Positions 1-32,000 of a DNA stretch of 32,000 nucleotides are shown here, piece after piece. The notes below the pieces were generated by a model that was not told the DNA's origin, ran no database searches, and saw only the letters and a program-made list of their open reading frames with translations. The position numbers were made by a program, and so were the translations under genes. Each line of letters opens with the position of its first letter. Within the stretch, counting starts at the first letter, position 1. The stretch spans positions 1 through 32,000 of the forward strand of contig NC_010163.1 in the NCBI RefSeq assembly GCF_000018785.1, given 5' to 3'. This stretch comes from Acholeplasma laidlawii PG-8A (GTDB lineage: Bacteria > Bacillota_I > Bacilli_A > Acholeplasmatales > Acholeplasmataceae).

Positions 1-34
1 TATTTGATTTTTTGCTTAATTTTTATGTAATTAC

Positions 35-215
35 TTCCCCACAATTTTTGCCCACATATTGTGGATAAATTTTCCACATTTTATTCACAATGTTGATAAG
101 TTGTGTAAGTCGACTTGTTGGCTTTATAAAGCAAATGACACACTGAAAGTTATCCACAAACAAATTTTTCAAAAGTGTTTAAATCAAAAAGTTATCCACA
201 AATAATGTGGAAAAC
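35..215. promoter_or_regulatory. oriC: oriC left half: cluster of DnaA boxes upstream of dnaA
   Basis: Three perfect TTATCCACA 9-mers: 60-68 (inverted, TGTGGATAA), 150-158 and 192-200. One-mismatch boxes at 70-78 (TTTTCCACA), 81-89 (TTATTCACA) and 207-215 (TGTGGAAAA). Two-mismatch boxes at 35-43 and 48-56. All lie in AT-rich DNA directly 5' of dnaA. Confidence 0.85.
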
Positions 216-288
216 TTTTTAATAAATTTGTCGTTTCTTATGCTATCATAGTTTTACATAAATTATTAACTACTATAGGGAGGCAGTC

Positions 289-1647
289 ATGAGTCCAAAC
301 AGCACATTATGGCAGACAATATTACAGGATTTAGAAAAACTATACAACGAGGAGACTTACAACGAGCTATTTCTACCAGTGACTTCTACTTTTAAAGATC
401 AAAACGGATTACTTACAATGGTTGTAGCTAATGAGTTCTTAAAGAATCGTATCAATAAACTATACATTGCAAAAATTAACGAACTTGCTACAAAATATTC
501 AAGTACTCCAGTTAGATTGAAATTCGTATCACAAGAAGAAGTTATTGAAGAACCAGTAGCTGATCGTAAATTAACCATTGATTATCGTCAAGGGAACTTA
601 AACTCTACCTATACCTTTGACTCTTTTGTTGTTGGAAAATCTAACATGTTTGCTTTTCGTATGGCGATGAAGGTTGCTGATCAACCTGGAGCAGTAGCAA
701 ACCCTTTCTACATATTTGGTGATGTAGGTTTAGGTAAAACCCATCTTATGCAAGCAATAGGTAACTATATATTAGATAATGATGTCGAAAAACGTATCTT
801 ATATGTTAAAGCTGATAACTTTATTGAAGACTTTGTATCTTTATTATCAAGAAACAAAAATAAGACTGAAGAATTCAATGCTAAATATAAAGATATTGAC
901 GTTATATTAGTAGACGACATCCAAATTATGGCAAATGCTAGTAAAACTCAAATGGAATTCTTTAAGCTCTTTGACTACCTATATTTAAATAATAAACAAA
1001 TCGTTATAACATCTGATAAACCAGCTTCACAATTAACAAATATCATGCCACGTTTAACGACACGTTTTGAAGCTGGTCTCTCTGTAGACATACAAATACC
1101 TGAATTAGAACATAGAATAAGTATTTTAAAGAGAAAAACAGCTACATTAGATGCCAACTTAGAGGTAAGTGAGGATATTTTAACCTTTATAGCATCTCAA
1201 TTTGCAGCAAACATTAGAGAAATGGAAGGTGCACTCATTCGTTTAATTAGTTATGCACAGACCTTTAATCTAGAAATTACAATGAATGTTGTTGAAGAAG
1301 CACTTGGTGCTGTATTAAAAACTAAGAAGAAAACAAATGATTTAAACGAAAATAACTACGATAAGATCCAAAGTATTGTAGCAGATTACTTCCAAGTTTC
1401 ATTACCAGACTTAATTGGTAAGAAAAGACATGCTAAATTCACATTACCTAGACATATAGCGATGTATCTTATTAAACTTAAATACAATATTCCTTATAAA
1501 ACAATTGGATCTTTATTTAATGATAGAGACCACTCCACAGTATTATCTGCTTGTGAAAAAGTAGAACGCGATATGAGGATGGATTCGAACTTAAAGTTTG
1601 CTGTTGACTCGATTGTCAAAAAAATAGATTCACCATTATTAAAGTGA
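289..1647 (+). CDS. dnaA: Chromosomal replication initiator protein DnaA
   Basis: 452-aa ORF with a GGGAGG RBS at 278-283. Walker A GDVGLGKTHL, Walker B/AAA+ ILVDDIQ, and a C-terminal DnaA-box-binding domain (RHIAMYL...DHSTVLSACEKV). Tandem stops TGA TAA. Position next to the DnaA boxes and dnaN is canonical. Confidence 0.97.
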   Translation: MSPNSTLWQTILQDLEKLYNEETYNELFLPVTSTFKDQNGLLTMVVANEFLKNRINKLYIAKINELATKYSSTPVRLKFVSQEEVIEEPVADRKLTIDYRQGNLNSTYTFDSFVVGKSNMFAFRMAMKVADQPGAVANPFYIFGDVGLGKTHLMQAIGNYILDNDVEKRILYVKADNFIEDFVSLLSRNKNKTEEFNAKYKDIDVILVDDIQIMANASKTQMEFFKLFDYLYLNNKQIVITSDKPASQLTNIMPRLTTRFEAGLSVDIQIPELEHRISILKRKTATLDANLEVSEDILTFIASQFAANIREMEGALIRLISYAQTFNLEITMNVVEEALGAVLKTKKKTNDLNENNYDKIQSIVADYFQVSLPDLIGKKRHAKFTLPRHIAMYLIKLKYNIPYKTIGSLFNDRDHSTVLSACEKVERDMRMDSNLKFAVDSIVKKIDSPLLK

Positions 1648-1671
1648 TAAATGTTTATAAAAATGATTAAA

Positions 1672-1777
1672 TGTGGTAAAATAAATGGTAGATGAAGCGA
1701 TTATTGCTAGTTTCCCACTTTCCCACAGACACTAACAATAACAAAGAAGAAATAATAATTAATAAAAGGGGTAAAAT
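1672..1777. promoter_or_regulatory. Candidate oriC right half (dnaA-dnaN spacer): degenerate DnaA boxes plus an AT-rich unwinding region
   Basis: TGTGGTAAA at 1672-1680 (1 mismatch, inverted). Tandem GTTTCCCAC/TTTCCCACA at 1710-1727. Short GC-containing spacer GACAC. Then a triplet run TAA CAA TAA CAA AGA AGA AAT AAT AAT TAA TAA (1733-1765) in very AT-rich DNA. The layout resembles the Firmicute bipartite origin. Confidence 0.45.
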
Positions 1778-1987
1778 ATGAATTTTACAATTGAAAGAGA
1801 TATCTTACTAAACCATCTAATGCCATGTACAAAAAGGATTACCAAATAAAACACCTCTACCTATTTTATATGCTATTAAATTTGAAGTGTTTTCAGATTA
1901 TATCCAATTAACAGCTTCTAACTCTGATATAGCCATTCAAGTATTAATTGATGATCCATCATTAGTTGTTCATAAGACAGGAAAGAT

Positions 1988-1996
1988 TGCTTTACC
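1988..1996. repeat. Left copy of the 9-bp target-site duplication (TGCTTTACC)
   Basis: Identical 9-mers abut both IS10 termini (1988-1996 and 3326-3334). A 9-bp duplication is the IS10 hallmark. Confidence 0.95.
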
Positions 1997-2019
1997 CTGA
2001 GAGATCCCCTCATAATTTC
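1997..2019. repeat. IS10 inside-end terminal inverted repeat
   Basis: CTGAGAGATCCCCTCATAATTTC matches the reverse complement of 3303-3325 (CTGATGAATCCCCTAATGATTTT) at about 17 of 23 positions. It contains a GATC at 2003-2006. Confidence 0.85.
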
Positions 2020-3218
2020 CCCAAAGCGTAACCATGTGTGAATAAATTTTGAGCTAGTAGGGTTGCAGCCACGAGTAAGTCTTCCCTTGTTATTGTGTAG
2101 CCAGAATGCCGCAAAACTTCCATGCCTAAGCGAACTGTTGAGAGTACGTTTCGATTTCTGACTGTGTTAGCCTGGAAGTGCTTGTCCCAACCTTGTTTCT
2201 GAGCATGAACGCCCGCAAGCCAACATGTTAGTTGAAGCATCAGGGCGATTAGCAGCATGATATCAAAACGCTCTGAGCTGCTCGTTCGGCTATGGCGTAG
2301 GCCTAGTCCGTAGGCAGGACTTTTCAAGTCTCGGAAGGTTTCTTCAATCTGCATTCGCTTCGAATAGATATTAACAAGTTGTTTGGGTGTTCGAATTTCA
2401 ACAGGTAAGTTAGTTGCTAGAACCCATGGCTCCTTTGCCGACGCTGAGTAGATTTTAGGTGACGGGTGGTGACAATGAGTCCGTGTCGAGCGCTGATTTT
2501 TTCGGCCTTTAGAGCGAGATTTATACAATAGAATTTGGCATGAGATTGGATTGCTTTTAGTCAGCCTCTTATAGCCTAAAGTCTTTGAGTGACTAGATGA
2601 CATATCATGTAAGTTGCTGATAGGTTTCCAGTTTTCCTCTCCTAGGTCTGCATATTGTACTTTTCCTCTTACTCGACTTAACCAGTACCAACCCAGCTTC
2701 TCAACGGATTTATACCATGGCACTTTAAAGCCAGCATCACTGACAATGAGCGGTGTGGTGTTACTCGGTAGAATGCTCGCAAGGTCGGCTAGAAATTGGT
2801 CATGAGCTTTCTTTGAACATTGCTCTGAAAGCGGGAACGCTTTCTCATAAAGAGTAACAGAACGACCGTGTAGTGCGACTGAAGCTCGCAATACCATAAG
2901 TCGTTTTTGCTCACGAATATCAGACCAGTCAACAAGTACAATGGGCATCGTATTGCCCGAACAGATAAAGCTAGCATGCCAACGGTATACAGCGAGTCGC
3001 TCTTTGTGGAGGTGACGATTACCTAACAATCGGTCGATTCGTTTGATGTTATGTTTTGTTCTCGCTTTGGTTGGCAGGTTACGGCCAAGTTCGGTAAGAG
3101 TGAGAGTTTTACAGTCAAGTAATGCGTGGCAAGCCAACGTTAAGCTGTTGAGTCGTTTTAAGTGTAATTCGGGGCAGAATTGGTAAAGAGAGTCGTGTAA
3201 AATATCGAGTTCGCACAT
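2010..3218 (-). CDS. IS10 transposase (DDE, IS4 family)
   Basis: 402-aa ORF MCELDILHDSLYQFCPELHLKRLNSLTLACHALLDCKTLTLTELGRNL...YALGKL, recognised as the IS10/Tn10 transposase. It contains the IS4-family YREK-region sequence (IYSKRMQIEETFRDLK). Confidence 0.95.
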   Translation of the reverse strand: MCELDILHDSLYQFCPELHLKRLNSLTLACHALLDCKTLTLTELGRNLPTKARTKHNIKRIDRLLGNRHLHKERLAVYRWHASFICSGNTMPIVLVDWSDIREQKRLMVLRASVALHGRSVTLYEKAFPLSEQCSKKAHDQFLADLASILPSNTTPLIVSDAGFKVPWYKSVEKLGWYWLSRVRGKVQYADLGEENWKPISNLHDMSSSHSKTLGYKRLTKSNPISCQILLYKSRSKGRKNQRSTRTHCHHPSPKIYSASAKEPWVLATNLPVEIRTPKQLVNIYSKRMQIEETFRDLKSPAYGLGLRHSRTSSSERFDIMLLIALMLQLTCWLAGVHAQKQGWDKHFQANTVRNRNVLSTVRLGMEVLRHSGYTITREDLLVAATLLAQNLFTHGYALGKL

Positions 3219-3279
3219 CTTGTTGTCTGATTATTGATTTTTCGCGAAACCATTTGATCATATGACAAGATGTGTATCC
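3211..3279 (+). ncRNA. IS10 RNA-OUT antisense RNA (coordinates mapped from the known IS10 layout)
   Basis: In IS10, RNA-IN starts at element nt 81 (window 3245, minus strand). The roughly 69-nt RNA-OUT starts at nt 115 (window 3211) and runs toward the outside end. I placed it by counting from the outside end at 3325, not by independent detection. Confidence 0.5.
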
Positions 3280-3302
3280 ACCTTAACTTAATGATTTTTA
3301 CC

Positions 3303-3325
3303 AAAATCATTAGGGGATTCATCAG
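3303..3325. repeat. IS10 outside-end terminal inverted repeat
   Basis: On the minus strand it reads CTGATGAATCCCCTAATGATTTT, the imperfect inverted partner of 1997-2019. Confidence 0.85.
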
Positions 3326-3334
3326 TGCTTTACC
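3326..3334. repeat. Right copy of the 9-bp target-site duplication (TGCTTTACC)
   Basis: Identical to 1988-1996. Deleting 1997-3334 restores a continuous dnaN frame (...KIALPGRYFIDII...). Confidence 0.95.
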
Positions 3335-4266
3335 TGGCCGTTATTTTATTGATATTATTAGAAAAGTAGCTGCTAAGCGTATTGAGGTTGCTCTACAAGA
3401 AGAAAGACTATTAGTTATTAAAGCAGATCGTTCAGAATTTAAATTAAAACTTATGGATATCGATGATTATCCAGATGTTGATTTTTTAGACTTAGCAGAA
3501 CCAGTGATTCTATCATCTGATATGGTGAAAGAAATTATTAAAGAAACTAATTTCGCTACAGCTGATAACGAAAAACGCCCAATTCTTACTGGGGTAAACT
3601 TTAAATATCAAGATAACCACTTATTTGCAGTTGCAACAGACTCTTACCGTTTATCTCAAAAAAATTTAAAACTAAGAACACATTCTAAAACATTTAATAT
3701 TGTTATTCCAAATAAATCATTAGATGATCTATCAAAAATATTAGATCATGTGAATGAAGAAATTGAAGTATTTATTAATCCAAATAAAATATTATTTAAA
3801 ATGAATAAAATTTGGTTTCAAACTAGATTATTAGAAGGTACATACCCGGATACAGCAAAAATCATACCTGTTAATTTTCCTACTGTCATTACATTTAATA
3901 AAGAAGAATTATTAAATGCAGTGGACCGTGTCTCTTTATTATCTCCAAGAGATAGAGAATCAAACTACAACATTATTAAATTAACATTAAGACCTGATCA
4001 AGTTGTTGAGATATCTTCAACAAACACTGAAGTTGGGGATGCAAAAGAAGAAATTATTCCATCAGAAGATGTAGTGGGAGAATTAATTTCAATCGCATTT
4101 AGTTCTAAATACTTAAATGAAGCACTTAAAGCATTTAATTCAACTGAAGTTACACTTAACTTTGCAGGTGAAATTAAACCGTTTGTAGTAAAAGGAAATC
4201 AAGATCCTGATCTCTTACATTTAATCTTACCAGTACGTATTGACTAATAAATATAGATAAAAATAG

Positions 4267-4693: not shown

Positions 4694-7636
<2,943 letters not shown>

Positions 7637-7654
7637 GAAAGGATGTAAATAATA

Positions 7655-10258
7655 ATGAGTGAAAATACAGATAAACTACATGATAAGATTAAAGAAGTAA
7701 ACATTACTTCAGAGATGAAAACATCCTTCTTAAACTATGCGATGAGTGTTATTGTATCTCGTGCACTTCCAAATGCTAAAGACGGATTAAAACCAGTTCA
7801 AAGACGTATTCTTTACGGTATGCATGAAAATAACATGTATGCAAATACGGCACATAAAAAATCAGCGAGAATCGTTGGGGATGTTATGGGGAAATATCAC
7901 CCTCATGGTGACTCTTCAATTTATGATGCCATGGTGCGTATGGCACAACCATTTAGTTATAGAAAACCATTAGTTGACGGTCATGGTAACTTTGGTTCTG
8001 TTGACGGTGATGGTGCTGCTGCGATGCGTTATACCGAAGCTAGACTATCTAAGATAGCTGGTGAAATGGTTAGAGATATCGACAAAAACACAGTAAATTT
8101 TGTAGATAACTATGATGGTTCAGAACGTGAACCACAAGTACTACCATCAAGATATCCAAACTTACTAGTAAACGGTTCAACCGGTATTGCTGTTGGTATG
8201 GCTACAAATATTCCACCACATAATTTAGGTGAAGTGATTGATGCAATCTTTGCATATTTAGATAATCCTGATATTACAGTACTTGAATTAATGCAATACA
8301 TTAAGGGACCAGACTTCCCAACAGGTGGTCAAATTCTTGGTATTACAGGTCTTCGTCAAGCATATGAAACAGGTAAAGGTATTATTGCTGTTCGTGCACA
8401 ACATGAAATTGTTGAAACTAAAAATAGAACAGAATTAATCATTACTGAAATACCTTACCAAGTAAATAAAACAACATTAATTGAAAGAATCGCTGAAGTT
8501 GTTAAAAATAAGATCATCGAAGGTATTTCAGACTTAAGAGATGAATCCAATAGAAAAGGTATGCGTATCGTTATTGAACTTAGAAAAGATACTAATCCAT
8601 CTGTTACCTTAAATAACTTATATAAACATACTCAACTTCAAACATCCTTTGGTATTAATATGATTGCTTTAGTCGATGGACAACCAAGACTACTTAGTTT
8701 AAAAGATGCATTAACACATTATATTGCACACCAAATTGAAATTATTACACGTCGTACACAATTTGATTTAGAAAAAGCTGAAGCTAGAATGCATATATTA
8801 GAAGCACTTGTTAAAGCTTTAAATGATGTAGATAATGTCATTAAAATCATCAAAGATGCAAAAAATCCTGAAGATGCTAGAAATAATTTAATAGCAACTT
8901 ATGATTTCACAGAAATTCAAGCTCGTTCTATTTTAACGATGCAACTTCAAAGATTAACAGGTCTTGAAATCGATAAAATTCATGAAGAAGCAGATAATTT
9001 AGCACATAAAATTACTGAATACAAACAAATTTTAGGTGATGAAGATCTAAAAATCGAAATCATAAAGTCTGAACTTCAAGAAATTAAAGATAAATATGAT
9101 GATCCTCGTATGTCAGAAGTGAATTTATATGAAGATCTTGATATTGATAATGAAGATTTAATCCCTGTTGAAGATATCGTTGTAACTGTAACAAATAATG
9201 GTTACATCAAACGTATGAATTTAGATGAGTATAAATTACAAAACAGAGGTGGCGTCGGCATGAGTGGTGTTAAACTACATGACGATGACTTTGTTGAGCA
9301 TATTGCGATGACATCAACACATGACTTCCACTTATTCTTTACCAACCTAGGTCGAGTATTTAAACTTAAAGGGTATACCTTACCATCTGGATCACGTCAA
9401 TCTAAAGGGGTACCAATTGTAAACTACCTAAACTTCCAACCAGGAGAAAAATTAGCAAGCTTTACAACCATTAAAGACTTTGATGCTGAAGATCACTATC
9501 TATTCTTTGTTACAAAGAGGGGTATCGTAAAACGTACACATATTAATAACTACAAGAATATTAGACAAAACGGTATTATAGCAATCAGTTTAAGGGAAGA
9601 TGATGAACTCTTAGTGACGAAATCAACCAATGGTCATAAACATATCTTACTAGGTGCATCAAACGGTAAAGCTATCCACTTCCTTGAAACAGATATTAGA
9701 GAAATTGGACGTACAGCAACCGGTGTCCGTGGTATGGACATACCAGATGATGAAGAAATTGTTGGATTTGCAGTTGTAGACGGTATTGAAGACGATATCT
9801 TAGTCATTACCGAAAACGGCTATGGAAAGCGTACATCGATTACTGAATATAGACTTCAAAACAGAGGCGGTAAAGGTGTTAAGACATTAAATGTAACAGA
9901 TAAAAACGGTAAGTTAAAAACTTTACGTAAAGTTACAAACGATGAAGACATCATTGTAGTAAGTGATAGAGGTATTACAATACGTATGCCAATTGATCAA
10001 ATCTCACAAACAAAACGTGCAACTCAAGGTGTAAGAATTATTACATTAAAAGGTGATCAAAAAGTATCAACAATCGCGATTGTAGATCATCAGGAACCTG
10101 AAGAAGAAGTTGTATCTAATGAAGCTGTAGTAACTCAAGAACAAATGGCTCTAAGCAATCAAAAAAAGGTCTTAGAAGTTGTTGAACTTGAAGCACTAGA
10201 AGAATCAGTAGATGAAGAAGATACAAAAAACGCCAAACAAACTAAATTAGATTTATAA
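7655..10258 (+). CDS. gyrA: DNA gyrase subunit A
   Basis: 867 aa. [16 protein letters not shown] sequence [17 protein letters not shown], catalytic-Tyr region [11 protein letters not shown], a C-terminal beta-pinwheel repeat region and an acidic tail. Confidence 0.98.
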
Positions 10259-12937: not shown

Positions 12938-12943
12938 ATATAT

Positions 12944-13170
12944 AATACGATGAAAGAGCTAATTTTAACGTTTATGTGGTAGAGAGTCTGTGGTAGGTGA
13001 AAACAGATCATATAGTTAGAAGTTCCACTCTGGAGTGATGCTAAAAACATCCGAGTTATTCACGTTAAGAATGTATGAGCGCTATTGTTTATATACAATA
13101 GAATTAAGGTGGCACCGCGATAATCAATGGATCGTCCTTAGACTATTTTTAGTCTAAGGACGTTTATTTT
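12944..13170 (+). promoter_or_regulatory. T-box riboswitch leader controlling serS
   Basis: AGAGAG box at 12981-12986. Distal-loop GGTGAAA at 12996-13002. Conserved T-box sequence AATTAAGGTGGCACCGCG at 13102-13119. Terminator with a 12-bp stem CGTCCTTAGACT (13133-13144) / AGTCTAAGGACG (13151-13162), then TTTATTTT. Candidate specifier UCC at 13024-13026, followed by A. Confidence 0.88.
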
Positions 13171-13186: not shown

Positions 13187-14458
13187 ATGTTAGATTTAAA
13201 ATATATAACTGAAAATATAGATGAAGTCATCTTGAAGTTAAATACTAGAGGTGGTGATTTTAGCCACTTAAGACAATTAATAGATTTACAAGAAGAGCGT
13301 AAATCTGTAATTAAAGAAGTTGAAGACTTAAAAGCAAAAAGAAACGAATACTCCAAAGAAATTGGGGAACTTAAAAGACAAAAACAAGATGCTTCTCACG
13401 TGTTATTAAAAGTAGAGTCCATTAAAAGTGACATACCAGCACTTGAGTTAAAACTTGGTGAGATTGATGAAAAAATTAATAAAGAACTCATCGTTTTACC
13501 AAATATTCCTGCTGACGATGTACCGGTTGGTAAAGATGAATCTGCAAATATTGAAATTAAAAAATGGGGTACTATTAGACATTTTGATTTTGAAGTAAAA
13601 GATCATACTCAATTAGGTGAAGCACTAAATATATTAGACTTTGAACGTGCAACTAAAATCACTGGTCCACGTTTTGTAGTAGATAAAGGGCTAGGTGCTA
13701 GACTGGAAAGAGCGCTTATAAACTTTATGATAGATACACATGCGTATACACATGGTTATACCGAAATCATTCCACCGTTTATTGTAAATGATAAATCTAT
13801 GTATGCAACAGGACAATTTCCTAAGTTTAAAGAAGATGCTTTTAAATTAGAAGGATTTGATTGGTATTTAAATCCAACAGCAGAAGTACCAACTATTAAC
13901 CTATTTAGAGATGAAATCATTGATAATGATGCATTACCAATTCAGTATGTAGCTTATACAACAGCATTTAGATCAGAGGCAGGTTCTGCTGGACGAGATA
14001 CTAAGGGTATTTTAAGACAACATCAATTCAATAAAGTTGAATTAATTAAATTTGCACGACCTGAAGATTCTGAACAAGCTCATCAAGATATGTTAGCAAA
14101 CTCAGAAAGAATACTACAACTATTAAATATTCCTTATCGAGTAGTTGTCTTATCAACAGGAGACATGGGCTTTGGTATGAGTAAGACATACGATATTGAA
14201 GTATGGTTACCAGGTCAAAATATGTACCGTGAAATTGGATCTATTTCAAATGCTAGAGACTTTCAAGCAAGAAGAGCCAACATTCGCTTTAAACGTTCAA
14301 AAGATGCTAAAACAGAATATGTGCATACATTAAACGGTTCTGGTTTAGCTGTTGGTAGAACAATGATTGCAGTACTAGAGAACTATCAAAATCAAGATGG
14401 ATCAATTACAATACCAGAAGTCTTAAAACCATATATGGGTGTAGAAGTTATTAAATAA
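13187..14458 (+). CDS. serS: Serine--tRNA ligase
   Basis: 423 aa. N-terminal coiled-coil tRNA-binding arm and class II aaRS motifs (TGPRFVV; [25 protein letters not shown]; [16 protein letters not shown]). RBS AAGGAGAAGG upstream. Confidence 0.97.
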
Positions 14459-31190: not shown

Positions 31191-32000
31191 CTATTTATTA
31201 CTATGTATTTTTTCATTTCTTGGCATATTTGTAATACGACTTACTTCATCAATTTCATTGAATTGTTCAATGTAACCTACTACATGCGGTTCTAATTTGT
31301 TTTTTTCAATAACACTTAGTGATATACCGTGGTGAGCTGTCATATGTTGAAGCACAGTTTCTATAATATCTCTTGGGATTATATCTTTTGGTTTGTTTTT
31401 AACTTCATCGAAGAATCGTAATGCATAGATACTAGAAATTGTTTCATGACCTTTGTAGTGTCCATTGTACTTAGCTTGAGATTTACCAAGATCATGTAAT
31501 GCGGAAACAATGTGCATAACTGGATCATGTGAATTTTTAATACACATATCGATATGTGTGTCAATATCTTCTAAATGATAAGGAGTTTCATGATTCTCGT
31601 TTAAACGTTCAAACTCTGGCATATATGCAGCGGAAATGTATCTTCTAACAGTCTCATAGATTCCATCTTTTAAAGCACTATTAATAAAGTCATTATATTC
31701 CGTATTGGAATTTAAGAATGTAGACTGACTAATAATCTTATAGTTATCACAATCTACTCCAACTCTAGGTGGTGCCATAAATTTATACATGTGCTCAATA
31801 ATATGAAAAGGTACTACCTTTTCAAAAGAACGCTTCTCATTTTGATATTTTGCAAACATAAGTGGTTCTAGGACCATATGAATTTCTACAGTATATCCAC
31901 GTGCCTTGAATTTTTCATAAAGCGATGTACGAAGGGCTCTTGAAATATTGGTTGCATCAAAAATTAAGGAGTCATCATAAGAAAAGACACGATCGTGTAA
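31191..32000 (-). CDS. Partial CDS (5' end outside the window): P-loop polynucleotide-kinase-like domain fused to a C-terminal HD phosphohydrolase domain
   Basis: The frame stays open upstream of the track's ATG at 31877 to the window edge (LHDRVFSYDDSLIFDATNISRALRTSLYEKFKARGYTVEIHMVLEPL...). This resembles the C-terminal part of AAA_33/PNK-type kinases (DATN...R). The downstream part carries HD-domain signatures (HLEDIDTHIDMCIKN, SALHDLGKSQAKYNGHYKGHE). Confidence 0.6.
   Translation of the reverse strand, partial: LHDRVFSYDDSLIFDATNISRALRTSLYEKFKARGYTVEIHMVLEPLMFAKYQNEKRSFEKVVPFHIIEHMYKFMAPPRVGVDCDNYKIISQSTFLNSNTEYNDFINSALKDGIYETVRRYISAAYMPEFERLNENHETPYHLEDIDTHIDMCIKNSHDPVMHIVSALHDLGKSQAKYNGHYKGHETISSIYALRFFDEVKNKPKDIIPRDIIETVLQHMTAHHGISLSVIEKNKLEPHVVGYIEQFNEIDEVSRITNMPRNEKIHSNK

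What the first reader, a model, noticed from the sequence alone, without database searches (positions are those of the whole stretch)
1988..3334. Complete E. coli-type IS10 with a perfect 9-bp target duplication splits the essential beta-clamp gene dnaN
Seen directly:
- A 1329-bp block (1997-3325) has imperfect terminal inverted repeats, CTGAGAGATCCCC... and ...GGGGATTCATCAG.
- It carries one 402-aa transposase ORF on the minus strand, with its ATG 108 nt from the 3325 end.
- It is bracketed by identical 9-mers TGCTTTACC (1988-1996 and 3326-3334).
- Removing the block plus one 9-mer rejoins ...HKTGKIALP|GRYFIDIIRKV..., a continuous DnaN frame.

Established knowledge, from memory: these ends, the 108-nt leader and the protein MCELDILHDSLYQFCPELHLKRLNSL... 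are those of IS10 from Tn10 and E. coli K-12 laboratory strains. IS10 is 1329 bp, makes 9-bp duplications and prefers NGCTNAGCN. The GCT half-site is present here.

Inference: dnaN is essential, and the element is compositionally foreign. G+C is 27/60 in 2221-2280 against 16/60 in 421-480. The most likely explanation is transposition from an E. coli cloning host, since DH10B-type strains carry active IS10. It would have been selected because a foreign oriC-dnaA-dnaN fragment is deleterious in E. coli. That makes it a cloning or assembly artefact deposited as genome sequence. The alternative is a genuine inter-phylum IS10 acquisition that knocks out the sole beta clamp, which would be remarkable and would require a second dnaN.
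Basis: partly seen in the sequence, partly recalled or inferred. Interest (0 to 1): 0.85.

Follow-up and report, generated by a model that had tools for sequence, protein, structure and literature searches.

The report
E. coli IS10 cloning artefact in dnaN
A jumping gene from laboratory E. coli (IS10) sits inside the essential DNA-clamp gene dnaN in the published reference genome of Acholeplasma laidlawii PG-8A, but every other assembly of that bacterium has the gene intact, so it is almost certainly a cloning artefact rather than biology.

Summary
Window 1997-3325 is a complete 1329-bp IS10-Right. It is 1328/1329 identical to E. coli copies and has imperfect terminal repeats, a 402-aa DDE transposase and RNA-OUT. 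It is flanked by an exact 9-bp duplication, TGCTTTACC, and sits inside dnaN.

The host DNA is Acholeplasma laidlawii, PG-8 lineage. The exact transposase variant is on record only as ABX80646.1 / WP_012241977.1 / UniProt A9NE66, "IS-10 transposase, A. laidlawii PG-8A", on a 1,496,992-bp contig. That is the size of the reference genome CP000896.

Seven other PG-8-lineage assemblies (99.9% identical) and strain 8195 all show the empty site, with one TGCTTTACC and an intact 376-aa DnaN.

An extra G at 1822 shifts the dnaN frame at codon 15, so excising IS10 alone does not restore the gene. Across about 30 kb of host DNA, the only two differences private to this record both lie in dnaN. IS10 itself carries one private base change.

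Best reading: IS10R hopped from the E. coli cloning host into cloned DNA, probably in a poorly covered or counter-selected region. This is a well-documented class of artefact. Biological interest is low. The practical value is curation of a reference genome and of RefSeq and UniProt entries.

The parts
1997..3325 (-). Complete IS10-Right (1329 bp). The strand given is that of the transposase. The inside end is at 1997 and the outside end at 3325.
   Evidence: 1328/1329 identical to E. coli copies. Two differences from the tetD-proximal IS10 of Tn10/R100 against 17 from the gltS-proximal copy. G+C 43.9% against 31.6% for the host DNA.
1988..1996 (.). Left copy of the 9-bp target-site duplication, TGCTTTACC.
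   Evidence: Exact repeat. Present once in the empty site of 8 other assemblies. Matches 4 of the 6 specified positions of NGCTNAGCN, which places it in the top 1.9% of host 9-mers.
3326..3334 (.). Right copy of the 9-bp target-site duplication, TGCTTTACC.
1997..2019 (+). Inside-end terminal inverted repeat, CTGAGAGATCCCC..., containing a GATC at 2003.
3303..3325 (-). Outside-end terminal inverted repeat, ...GGGGATTCATCAG.
   Evidence: 17/23 matches with the inside end
2010..3218 (-). IS10 transposase, 402 aa, DDE_Tnp_1 (IS4 family). It differs from the common E. coli protein WP_001339197.1 only by A194E.
   Evidence: The exact sequence equals ABX80646.1 / WP_012241977.1 / A9NE66, 'IS-10 transposase, A. 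laidlawii PG-8A'.
2638..2638 (+). The single base private to this IS10 copy: T here, G in E. coli. It causes A194E.
   Evidence: None of 5464 E. coli places carries T. A 39-mer containing it is absent from 185,579 species-representative genomes.
3211..3280 (+). RNA-OUT, the IS10 antisense regulator. It is transcribed towards the outside end and therefore towards the 3' part of dnaN.
   Evidence: Rfam RF00240, 98.8 bits against a gathering score of 41, full length 1-70.
1778..1996 (+). 5' fragment of dnaN (codons 1-73), itself frameshifted.
   Evidence: Pfam DNA_pol3_beta on the repaired protein.
1822..1822 (+). Extra G private to this record. It shifts the dnaN frame at codon 15 and gives a stop at codon 24.
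   Evidence: Absent from all 7 PG-8-lineage assemblies compared. Removing it together with IS10 and one duplication copy gives a 376-aa DnaN 100% identical to that of LS483439.1.
3326..4247 (+). 3' fragment of dnaN (rest of codon 73 to the stop). It carries a record-private synonymous A>G at 4010.
289..1647 (+). dnaA (452 aa), the intact upstream neighbour. It is ABX80645.1, the accession immediately before the IS10 transposase.
60..214 (.). Cluster of DnaA boxes (oriC-type region) upstream of dnaA.
   Evidence: 3 perfect and 4 one-mismatch TTATCCACA sites

Best explanation
The block is IS10-Right from an E. coli K-12 cloning host. It is not a component of the Acholeplasma laidlawii chromosome.

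Mechanism:
1. While the DNA used to build the PG-8A reference genome (CP000896) was carried in E. coli, as a shotgun or gap-closing clone, a resident IS10R cut itself out.
2. It inserted into the cloned dnaN at TGCTTTACC by its normal cut-and-paste mechanism, creating the 9-bp duplication.
3. The clone was sequenced and its sequence entered the consensus.

Secondary claim, about 60% likely. Clones with an intact dnaN/oriC-proximal region were under-represented or counter-selected in E. coli, so only damaged clones or thin coverage were available here. That would explain why the same gene also carries a private frameshift and a private silent change, and why the IS carries a private base change.

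Shown here: the identity of the element, the duplication, the empty site in all other assemblies, the source record, and the clustering of anomalies.

Inferred: that the hop took place in E. coli, and that selection was involved.
For: 1. **Identity of the element.** It is IS10R at 99.92% identity to E. coli. It has intact ends, a DDE transposase and RNA-OUT. Its G+C is foreign, 43.9% against 31.6%.
2. **The insertion site.** An exact 9-bp duplication flanks the element, and a single copy is present in the empty site.
3. **Other assemblies.** Seven PG-8-lineage assemblies, 99.9-99.98% identical to the window's flanks, and strain 8195 (95.4%) lack the insertion and encode an intact 376-aa DnaN. 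That exact DnaN is on 26 contigs. Four of the assemblies are 454 data made without cloning (PMC5668537).
4. **The source record.** The transposase variant exists only as ABX80646.1 / WP_012241977.1 / A9NE66 of A. laidlawii PG-8A, on a 1,496,992-bp contig. That is the size of CP000896.
5. **State of dnaN.** It is doubly broken.
6. **Clustering of private differences.** The only two host-DNA differences private to this record in about 30.3 kb both lie in the 1.13-kb dnaN. The chance of that is roughly (1131/30312)^2, about 0.0014.
7. **Literature.** IS10 is the most frequent E. coli IS found in Sanger shotgun reads of other bacteria, and such insertions are enriched in harmful inserts (PMC2891674). 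DH10B, XL1-Blue and JM109 carry IS10R, and the paper's reference list cites Kovarik et al. [quoted passage not shown]
Against: - I could not read the genome paper (Lazarev et al. 2011, PMC3165704 not held), so use of E. coli clone libraries for CP000896 is not documented here.
- No raw reads or traces of the original project were available.
- Two inactivating lesions in one gene are more than selection needs, since either alone would do. The frameshift may therefore be a base-calling error rather than a selected mutation.
- The private G>T in IS10 is found in no E. coli genome. It is unexplained, and could be an error or a clone mutation.
- The rest of CP000896 could not be scanned for further IS10 copies.
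Confidence: 0.93

Rival explanations
1. This is a variant of the artefact reading without selection. IS10 hopped into a clone in E. coli purely by chance. The frameshift at 1822, the silent change at 4010 and the base change in IS10 are base-calling errors from thin coverage, with no counter-selection of dnaN.
For: Either lesion alone would inactivate dnaN, so two are not needed. The extra G is not a selected type of event in itself. IS10 is highly active in cloning strains.
Against: Umenhoffer et al. calculate about one unselected host-IS hit per 100 sequencing projects. They attribute higher rates to selection. All record-private anomalies lie in one gene out of about 30 kb, so that region was special in some way.
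Confidence: 0.3
2. The insertion is genuine. The PG-8A culture that was sequenced had acquired IS10 from an enterobacterium, and it transposed into the chromosomal dnaN.
For: The insertion has all the marks of a real transposition event, with complete ends and a 9-bp duplication. The copy has one private substitution.
Against: - dnaN encodes the sliding clamp, which established knowledge holds to be essential, and here it is broken twice.
- Only one DnaN locus was found in the species representative, although that search sees close paralogues only.
- All eight other assemblies have the empty site.
- The element is 99.9% identical to E. coli IS10R and shows no adaptation to a 32% G+C host.
Confidence: 0.02
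3. The block is a misassembly. Reads from contaminating E. coli DNA were joined into the Acholeplasma contig by the assembler, with no transposition event.
For: The block is E. coli-type DNA inside a Mollicute contig.
Against: A chimeric join would not stop exactly at both IS10 termini. Nor would it create a perfect 9-bp direct duplication of a sequence that is single-copy in the empty site. No E. coli DNA lies beyond the IS ends.
Confidence: 0.02
4. The insertion is a deliberate transposon mutagenesis or engineering product, a Tn10 derivative introduced into A. laidlawii.
For: Transposons are used in A. laidlawii. A Tn5 transposome is described in PMC10805103.
Against: The element is a bare wild-type IS10R with its own transposase and no marker. 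The tool described for this species is Tn5, not Tn10. An essential gene would not be recovered as a knockout.
Confidence: 0.01

Closest known systems
IS10-Right of Tn10 (IS4 family; labelled 'ISVsa5 family' by NCBI's annotation pipeline)
   Same: It is 1329 bp with the same ends. The 402-aa DDE transposase starts 108 nt from the outside end. RNA-OUT is present, the duplication is 9 bp, and there are GATC sites at the inside end and at the transposase promoter region. It is 1328/1329 identical to dispersed E. coli copies and differs at 2 positions from the tetD-proximal copy on R100.
   Different: One private base, G>T at 2638, giving A194E. The target matches only 4 of the 6 consensus positions. 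It resides in a Mollicute genome record.
E. coli host-IS contamination of cloned and shotgun sequences (Umenhoffer et al. 2010, PMC2891674, read here. Kovarik et al. 2001, Astua-Monge et al. 2002 and Binns 1993 are known here only from its reference list)
   Same: IS10 from a K-12 cloning strain lands in a cloned foreign fragment and is carried into a deposited sequence. Enrichment occurs where the insert harms the host.
   Different: Here the artefact survived into a finished 'complete genome' that serves as the species reference. It was annotated as an Acholeplasma protein in GenBank, RefSeq and UniProt, and it removes an essential gene from the protein set.
IS10-Left of Tn10
   Same: Same length and organisation.
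   Different: 17 differences from the window copy. PMC11148124 reports it as inactive.

Membership tests
IS10 / IS10-Right (IS4 family) | Length of 1329 bp with near-identical sequence to reference IS10R | tested here: met
   1329 bp. 1328/1329 identical to E. coli copies. Two differences from the tetD-proximal IS10 of Tn10/R100 and 17 from the other copy. Calling the tetD-proximal copy 'Right' rests on the standard Tn10 map, recalled from memory. PMC11148124 states that IS10R is the 1329-bp active copy.
IS10 / IS10-Right (IS4 family) | Imperfect terminal inverted repeats of about 23 bp (CTGA...) | tested here: met
   1997-2019 against 3303-3325, 17/23 matches
IS10 / IS10-Right (IS4 family) | Single DDE transposase of 402 aa, IS4-type | tested here: met
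   ORF 2010-3218 on the minus strand. Pfam DDE_Tnp_1, E = 1.5e-24. One residue different from WP_001339197.1.
IS10 / IS10-Right (IS4 family) | Antisense RNA-OUT overlapping the transposase start | tested here: met
   Rfam RF00240 at 3211-3280 on the plus strand, 98.8 bits
IS10 / IS10-Right (IS4 family) | 9-bp target-site duplication | tested here: met
   TGCTTTACC occurs twice here and once in the empty sites
IS10 / IS10-Right (IS4 family) | Target preference NGCTNAGCN | tested here: inconclusive
   4 of 6 specified positions match, with the left GCT half-site perfect. That places the site in the top 1.9% of host 9-mers. However, dnaN also holds an unused 6/6 site.
IS10 / IS10-Right (IS4 family) | Transposition activity of this copy (A194E variant) | not testable with these tools
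   This needs a transposition assay.
Cloning-host IS artefact | The element is identical or nearly identical to a resident IS of the cloning strain | tested here: met
   99.92% identical to E. coli IS10R. DH10B, XL1-Blue and JM109 carry IS10R.
Cloning-host IS artefact | The insertion is absent from independent, uncloned sequence of the same organism | tested here: met
   Seven PG-8-lineage assemblies and strain 8195 have the empty site. Four of them are 454 whole-genome data.
Cloning-host IS artefact | The deposited sequence was derived from DNA propagated in E. coli | not tested
   The genome paper was not available, and neither traces nor methods could be read.
Beta sliding clamp DnaN (the interrupted gene) | Three DNA_pol3_beta domains and the dnaA-dnaN-recF-gyrB context | tested here: met
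   Pfam PF00712, PF02767 and PF02768 on the repaired 376-aa protein. Gene order.

The most novel reading that the evidence does not exclude
The stock of A. laidlawii PG-8A that was sequenced really carried an enterobacterial IS10R in its chromosome. That would be an inter-phylum transfer. It would have disrupted the only annotated beta-clamp gene, so the cells must have survived on a second clamp gene, on a duplicated origin region, or as a mixed population.
Probability: 0.015. Interest if true: 0.8.

Novelty: already known. Interest (0 to 1): 0.15.

Why it matters
It does not reveal new biology. It matters for data quality.

[quoted passage not shown] It has been used as the mapping reference in later genome announcements.
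- In this record the essential dnaN cannot be translated as one product. An E. coli transposase is catalogued as an Acholeplasma protein in GenBank, RefSeq and UniProt.
- This can mislead core-genome, essential-gene and minimal-genome comparisons. It can also mislead surveys of horizontal transfer and IS distribution, and any design work based on the reference sequence.
- The case is a clean, fully documented example of a host-IS artefact that survived into a finished genome.

Tried and rejected
- **Exact look-up of gene positions.** Searching for the E194 transposase and for the IS10-DnaN fusion ORF found nothing. The protein-cluster look-up later did find the transposase.
- **Scan of species-representative genomes.** A 39-mer carrying the private T was searched in 185,579 genomes and gave no hit. 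The GTDB representative of the species is strain 8195, not PG-8A, so the full source record could not be read and further IS10 copies in it could not be sought.
- **Papers not held.** The genome paper PMC3165704 and the Tn10 sequence paper PMC102010 were unavailable.
- **Literature search for a prior note.** Searches for IS10 with Acholeplasma, for dnaN with A. laidlawii, and for ACL_0002/ACL_0003/A9NE66/WP_012241977 found no paper that mentions this insertion. The 'IS10' hits in the A. oculi paper are IS1001/IS1096.
- **Rejected readings.** A chimeric misassembly does not fit the exact ends plus a duplication. Engineered Tn10 does not fit a bare wild-type IS with no marker. A natural polymorphism of the species does not fit eight empty sites.
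- **DH10B comparison not done.** I did not compare against a DH10B IS10 copy directly, for lack of coordinates. Tn10 on R100 and dispersed E. coli copies were used instead.

Full report
**1. What is in the sequence**

Window 1997-3325 is a 1329-bp block. It has imperfect terminal inverted repeats, CTGAGAGATCCCC... and ...GGGGATTCATCAG, matching at 22 nt and 77% or 17/23 positions.

It carries one 402-aa ORF on the minus strand at 2010-3218. The ATG of that ORF is the 108th base from the 3325 end.

The block is flanked by identical 9-mers, TGCTTTACC, at 1988-1996 and 3326-3334.

Its G+C is 43.9%, against 31.6% for the rest of the window. It is the only stretch of raised G+C in 32 kb.

**2. Identity of the element**

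A megablast against 5,426 complete E. coli genomes gives full-length matches at 99.9% in more than a thousand genomes. The same is true in enterobacterial plasmids.

Base-by-base comparison shows a single difference from a full E. coli copy. Position 2638 is T here and G there, which changes transposase residue 194 from Ala to Glu.

None of 5,464 E. coli places carries that T. A 39-mer containing it is absent from 185,579 species-representative genomes.

Against Tn10 on plasmid R100, the window copy differs at 2 positions from the tetD-proximal IS10 and at 17 from the gltS-proximal IS10. The tetD-proximal transposase is WP_001339197.1, the same protein as in dispersed E. coli copies. By the standard Tn10 map, recalled from memory, the tetD-proximal copy is IS10-Right, the active one. 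PMC11148124 states that IS10R is the 1329-bp active copy.

The transposase matches Pfam DDE_Tnp_1. Rfam finds a full-length RNA-OUT at 3211-3280 on the plus strand, at 98.8 bits against a gathering score of 41. GATC sites lie at the inside end (2003) and in the promoter region (3256).

All testable defining features of IS10R are met. The exception is target preference, which is only partly matched: 4 of 6 consensus positions, placing the site in the top 1.9% of host 9-mers.

**3. Host and source record**

The surrounding genes are dnaA, dnaN, an S4-like gene, recF, gyrB and gyrA.

The exact DnaA sequence is carried by 14 contigs from NCBI assemblies:
- LS483439.1, a complete genome of 1,497,557 bp
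- NELO02
- LZGF01, LZGE01 and LVCP01
- QRDS01
- VKID01

PMC5668537 names LVCP, LZGF and LZGE as Acholeplasma laidlawii PG8 derivatives sequenced on the 454 platform. It names NELO as a further A. laidlawii strain, tetracycline-resistant.

A scan of species representatives returns 'Acholeplasma laidlawii strain 8195 chromosome' with a DnaN 100% identical to that of LS483439.1.

The exact A194E transposase exists in the 15-billion-protein collection under ABX80646.1, WP_012241977.1 and UniRef100_A9NE66, named 'IS-10 transposase, Acholeplasma laidlawii (strain PG-8A)'. It is on a single contig of 1,496,992 bp. That is the published size of CP000896.

DnaA is ABX80645.1, the accession immediately before the transposase. 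In the deposit, therefore, the IS10 transposase directly follows dnaA and no DnaN protein lies between them.

The window is thus the start of the PG-8A reference genome.

**4. The insertion is private to this record**

In seven PG-8-lineage assemblies the window's flanks align at 99.9-99.98% identity. Window 1-1996 and 3326 onward overlap by exactly 9 bases in the subject, which is an empty site with one TGCTTTACC. A 40-mer spanning the empty site is present in all seven.

Strain 8195, at 95.4% DNA identity, shows the same 9-bp overlap.

All of these assemblies encode a 376-aa DnaN. The exception is LVCP01, where a T-run length error splits the gene. The exact 376-aa DnaN sequence is on 26 contigs.

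Other Acholeplasma species also have uninterrupted DnaN matches over residues 1-376.

**5. A second lesion, and clustering of anomalies**

All seven PG-8-lineage assemblies lack it.

It shifts the frame at codon 15 and produces a stop at codon 24. Removing IS10 plus one duplication copy therefore does not restore the gene. Removing the G as well yields a protein 100% identical to the LS483439.1 DnaN.

I built composite sequences of three independent assemblies covering the whole window and aligned them. In about 30.3 kb of host DNA, only two differences are private to the window: the G at 1822 and a synonymous A>G at 4010. Both lie inside the 1.13-kb dnaN. By chance this would happen with probability of about (1131/30312)^2, or 0.0014.

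Together with the IS10 insertion and the private base inside IS10, four record-specific anomalies fall within 2.5 kb and none falls elsewhere. The template for this stretch was evidently different from the rest. It may have been one or a few damaged clones, or it may have had thin coverage.

**6. Mechanism**

The perfect duplication and exact ends show a real transposition event (established IS10 biology). This rules out a chimeric assembly.

There are three reasons to doubt that the event took place in A. laidlawii:
- The sliding clamp is essential (established knowledge), and here it is broken twice.
- The element is essentially E. coli IS10R in both sequence and composition.
- No other assembly of the strain lineage has it.

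The event fits a documented artefact. Umenhoffer et al. found IS10 to be the dominant E. coli IS in Sanger shotgun reads of other bacteria, with 68 of 109 IS-containing reads. They calculated that unselected events should occur in about 1 of 100 projects, and they showed selection of IS hits in harmful inserts (PMC2891674). DH10B, XL1-Blue and JM109 carry IS10R (PMC11148124).

Whether this particular hit was selected remains an inference. Candidate causes, from my own knowledge and not tested here, are clamp toxicity or titration of DnaA by the nearby box cluster at 60-214. I put it at about 60%. The alternative is a chance hop combined with low-coverage base-calling errors.

**7. Limits**

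- The genome paper and the original traces were not available.
- The full CP000896 record could not be scanned for other IS10 copies or a second dnaN. Only one DnaN locus was seen in strain 8195, by a search that detects close relatives only.
- No paper in the held library mentions this insertion.

**8. Verdict**

Nothing here is new as a kind of system: the element is IS10R itself, and host-IS contamination is a known phenomenon. Biological interest is low.

The practical consequence is that a reference genome lacks a translatable dnaN, and that an E. coli transposase is listed as an Acholeplasma protein in RefSeq and UniProt.

Noticed in passing
window 1822: An extra G inside dnaN codon 15 is private to this record. 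It is a frameshift independent of the IS10 insertion. It is not in a homopolymer run, so it could be a clone mutation or a Sanger base-calling error.
   Followed up: yes
window 3270-4247 (+): An in-frame fusion ORF of 325 aa joins 20 codons read out of the IS10 outside end to DnaN residues 73-376. It lies in the direction of RNA-OUT/pOUT transcription, so a truncated clamp could be expressed in E. coli. The exact product is not in the protein collection.
   Followed up: partly
window 12941-13142 (+): A T-box leader (Rfam RF00230, 103 bits) lies directly upstream of the seryl-tRNA synthetase gene at 13187-14458.
   Followed up: no
window 60-214: A cluster of DnaA boxes lies upstream of dnaA, with 3 perfect TTATCCACA and 4 one-mismatch sites. 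This is the oriC-type region.
   Followed up: partly
L006 (LVCP01000004.1) 7490-8621, matching window ~3481: The 454-based PG8B draft also shows dnaN split into 134 and 257 aa, caused by an extra T in a T-run. This is a homopolymer-length error unrelated to IS10.
   Followed up: partly
window 6894, 7103, 7370 (gyrB): Three G/T differences separate the window, LS483439 and QRDS01 from the Kazan laboratory strains (NELO02, LZGF01, LZGE01, LVCP01, VKID01). They are lineage markers within PG-8 stocks, lying in a gyrase gene of strains selected on fluoroquinolone and other drugs.
   Followed up: no
window 31191-31877 (-), L024-L031 15220-16362: The called length of the AAA_33/zeta-toxin-like gene varies between assemblies (324, 339 or 380 aa). 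The window ORF is 228 aa from its first in-frame start. This may reflect start-site or frameshift variation.
   Followed up: no
IS10 position 1127 (window 3123): Both IS10 copies of Tn10 on R100 have G here. The window and the dispersed E. coli copy have T. The window copy therefore matches the dispersed chromosomal IS10R variant rather than the R100 Tn10 sequence.
   Followed up: partly
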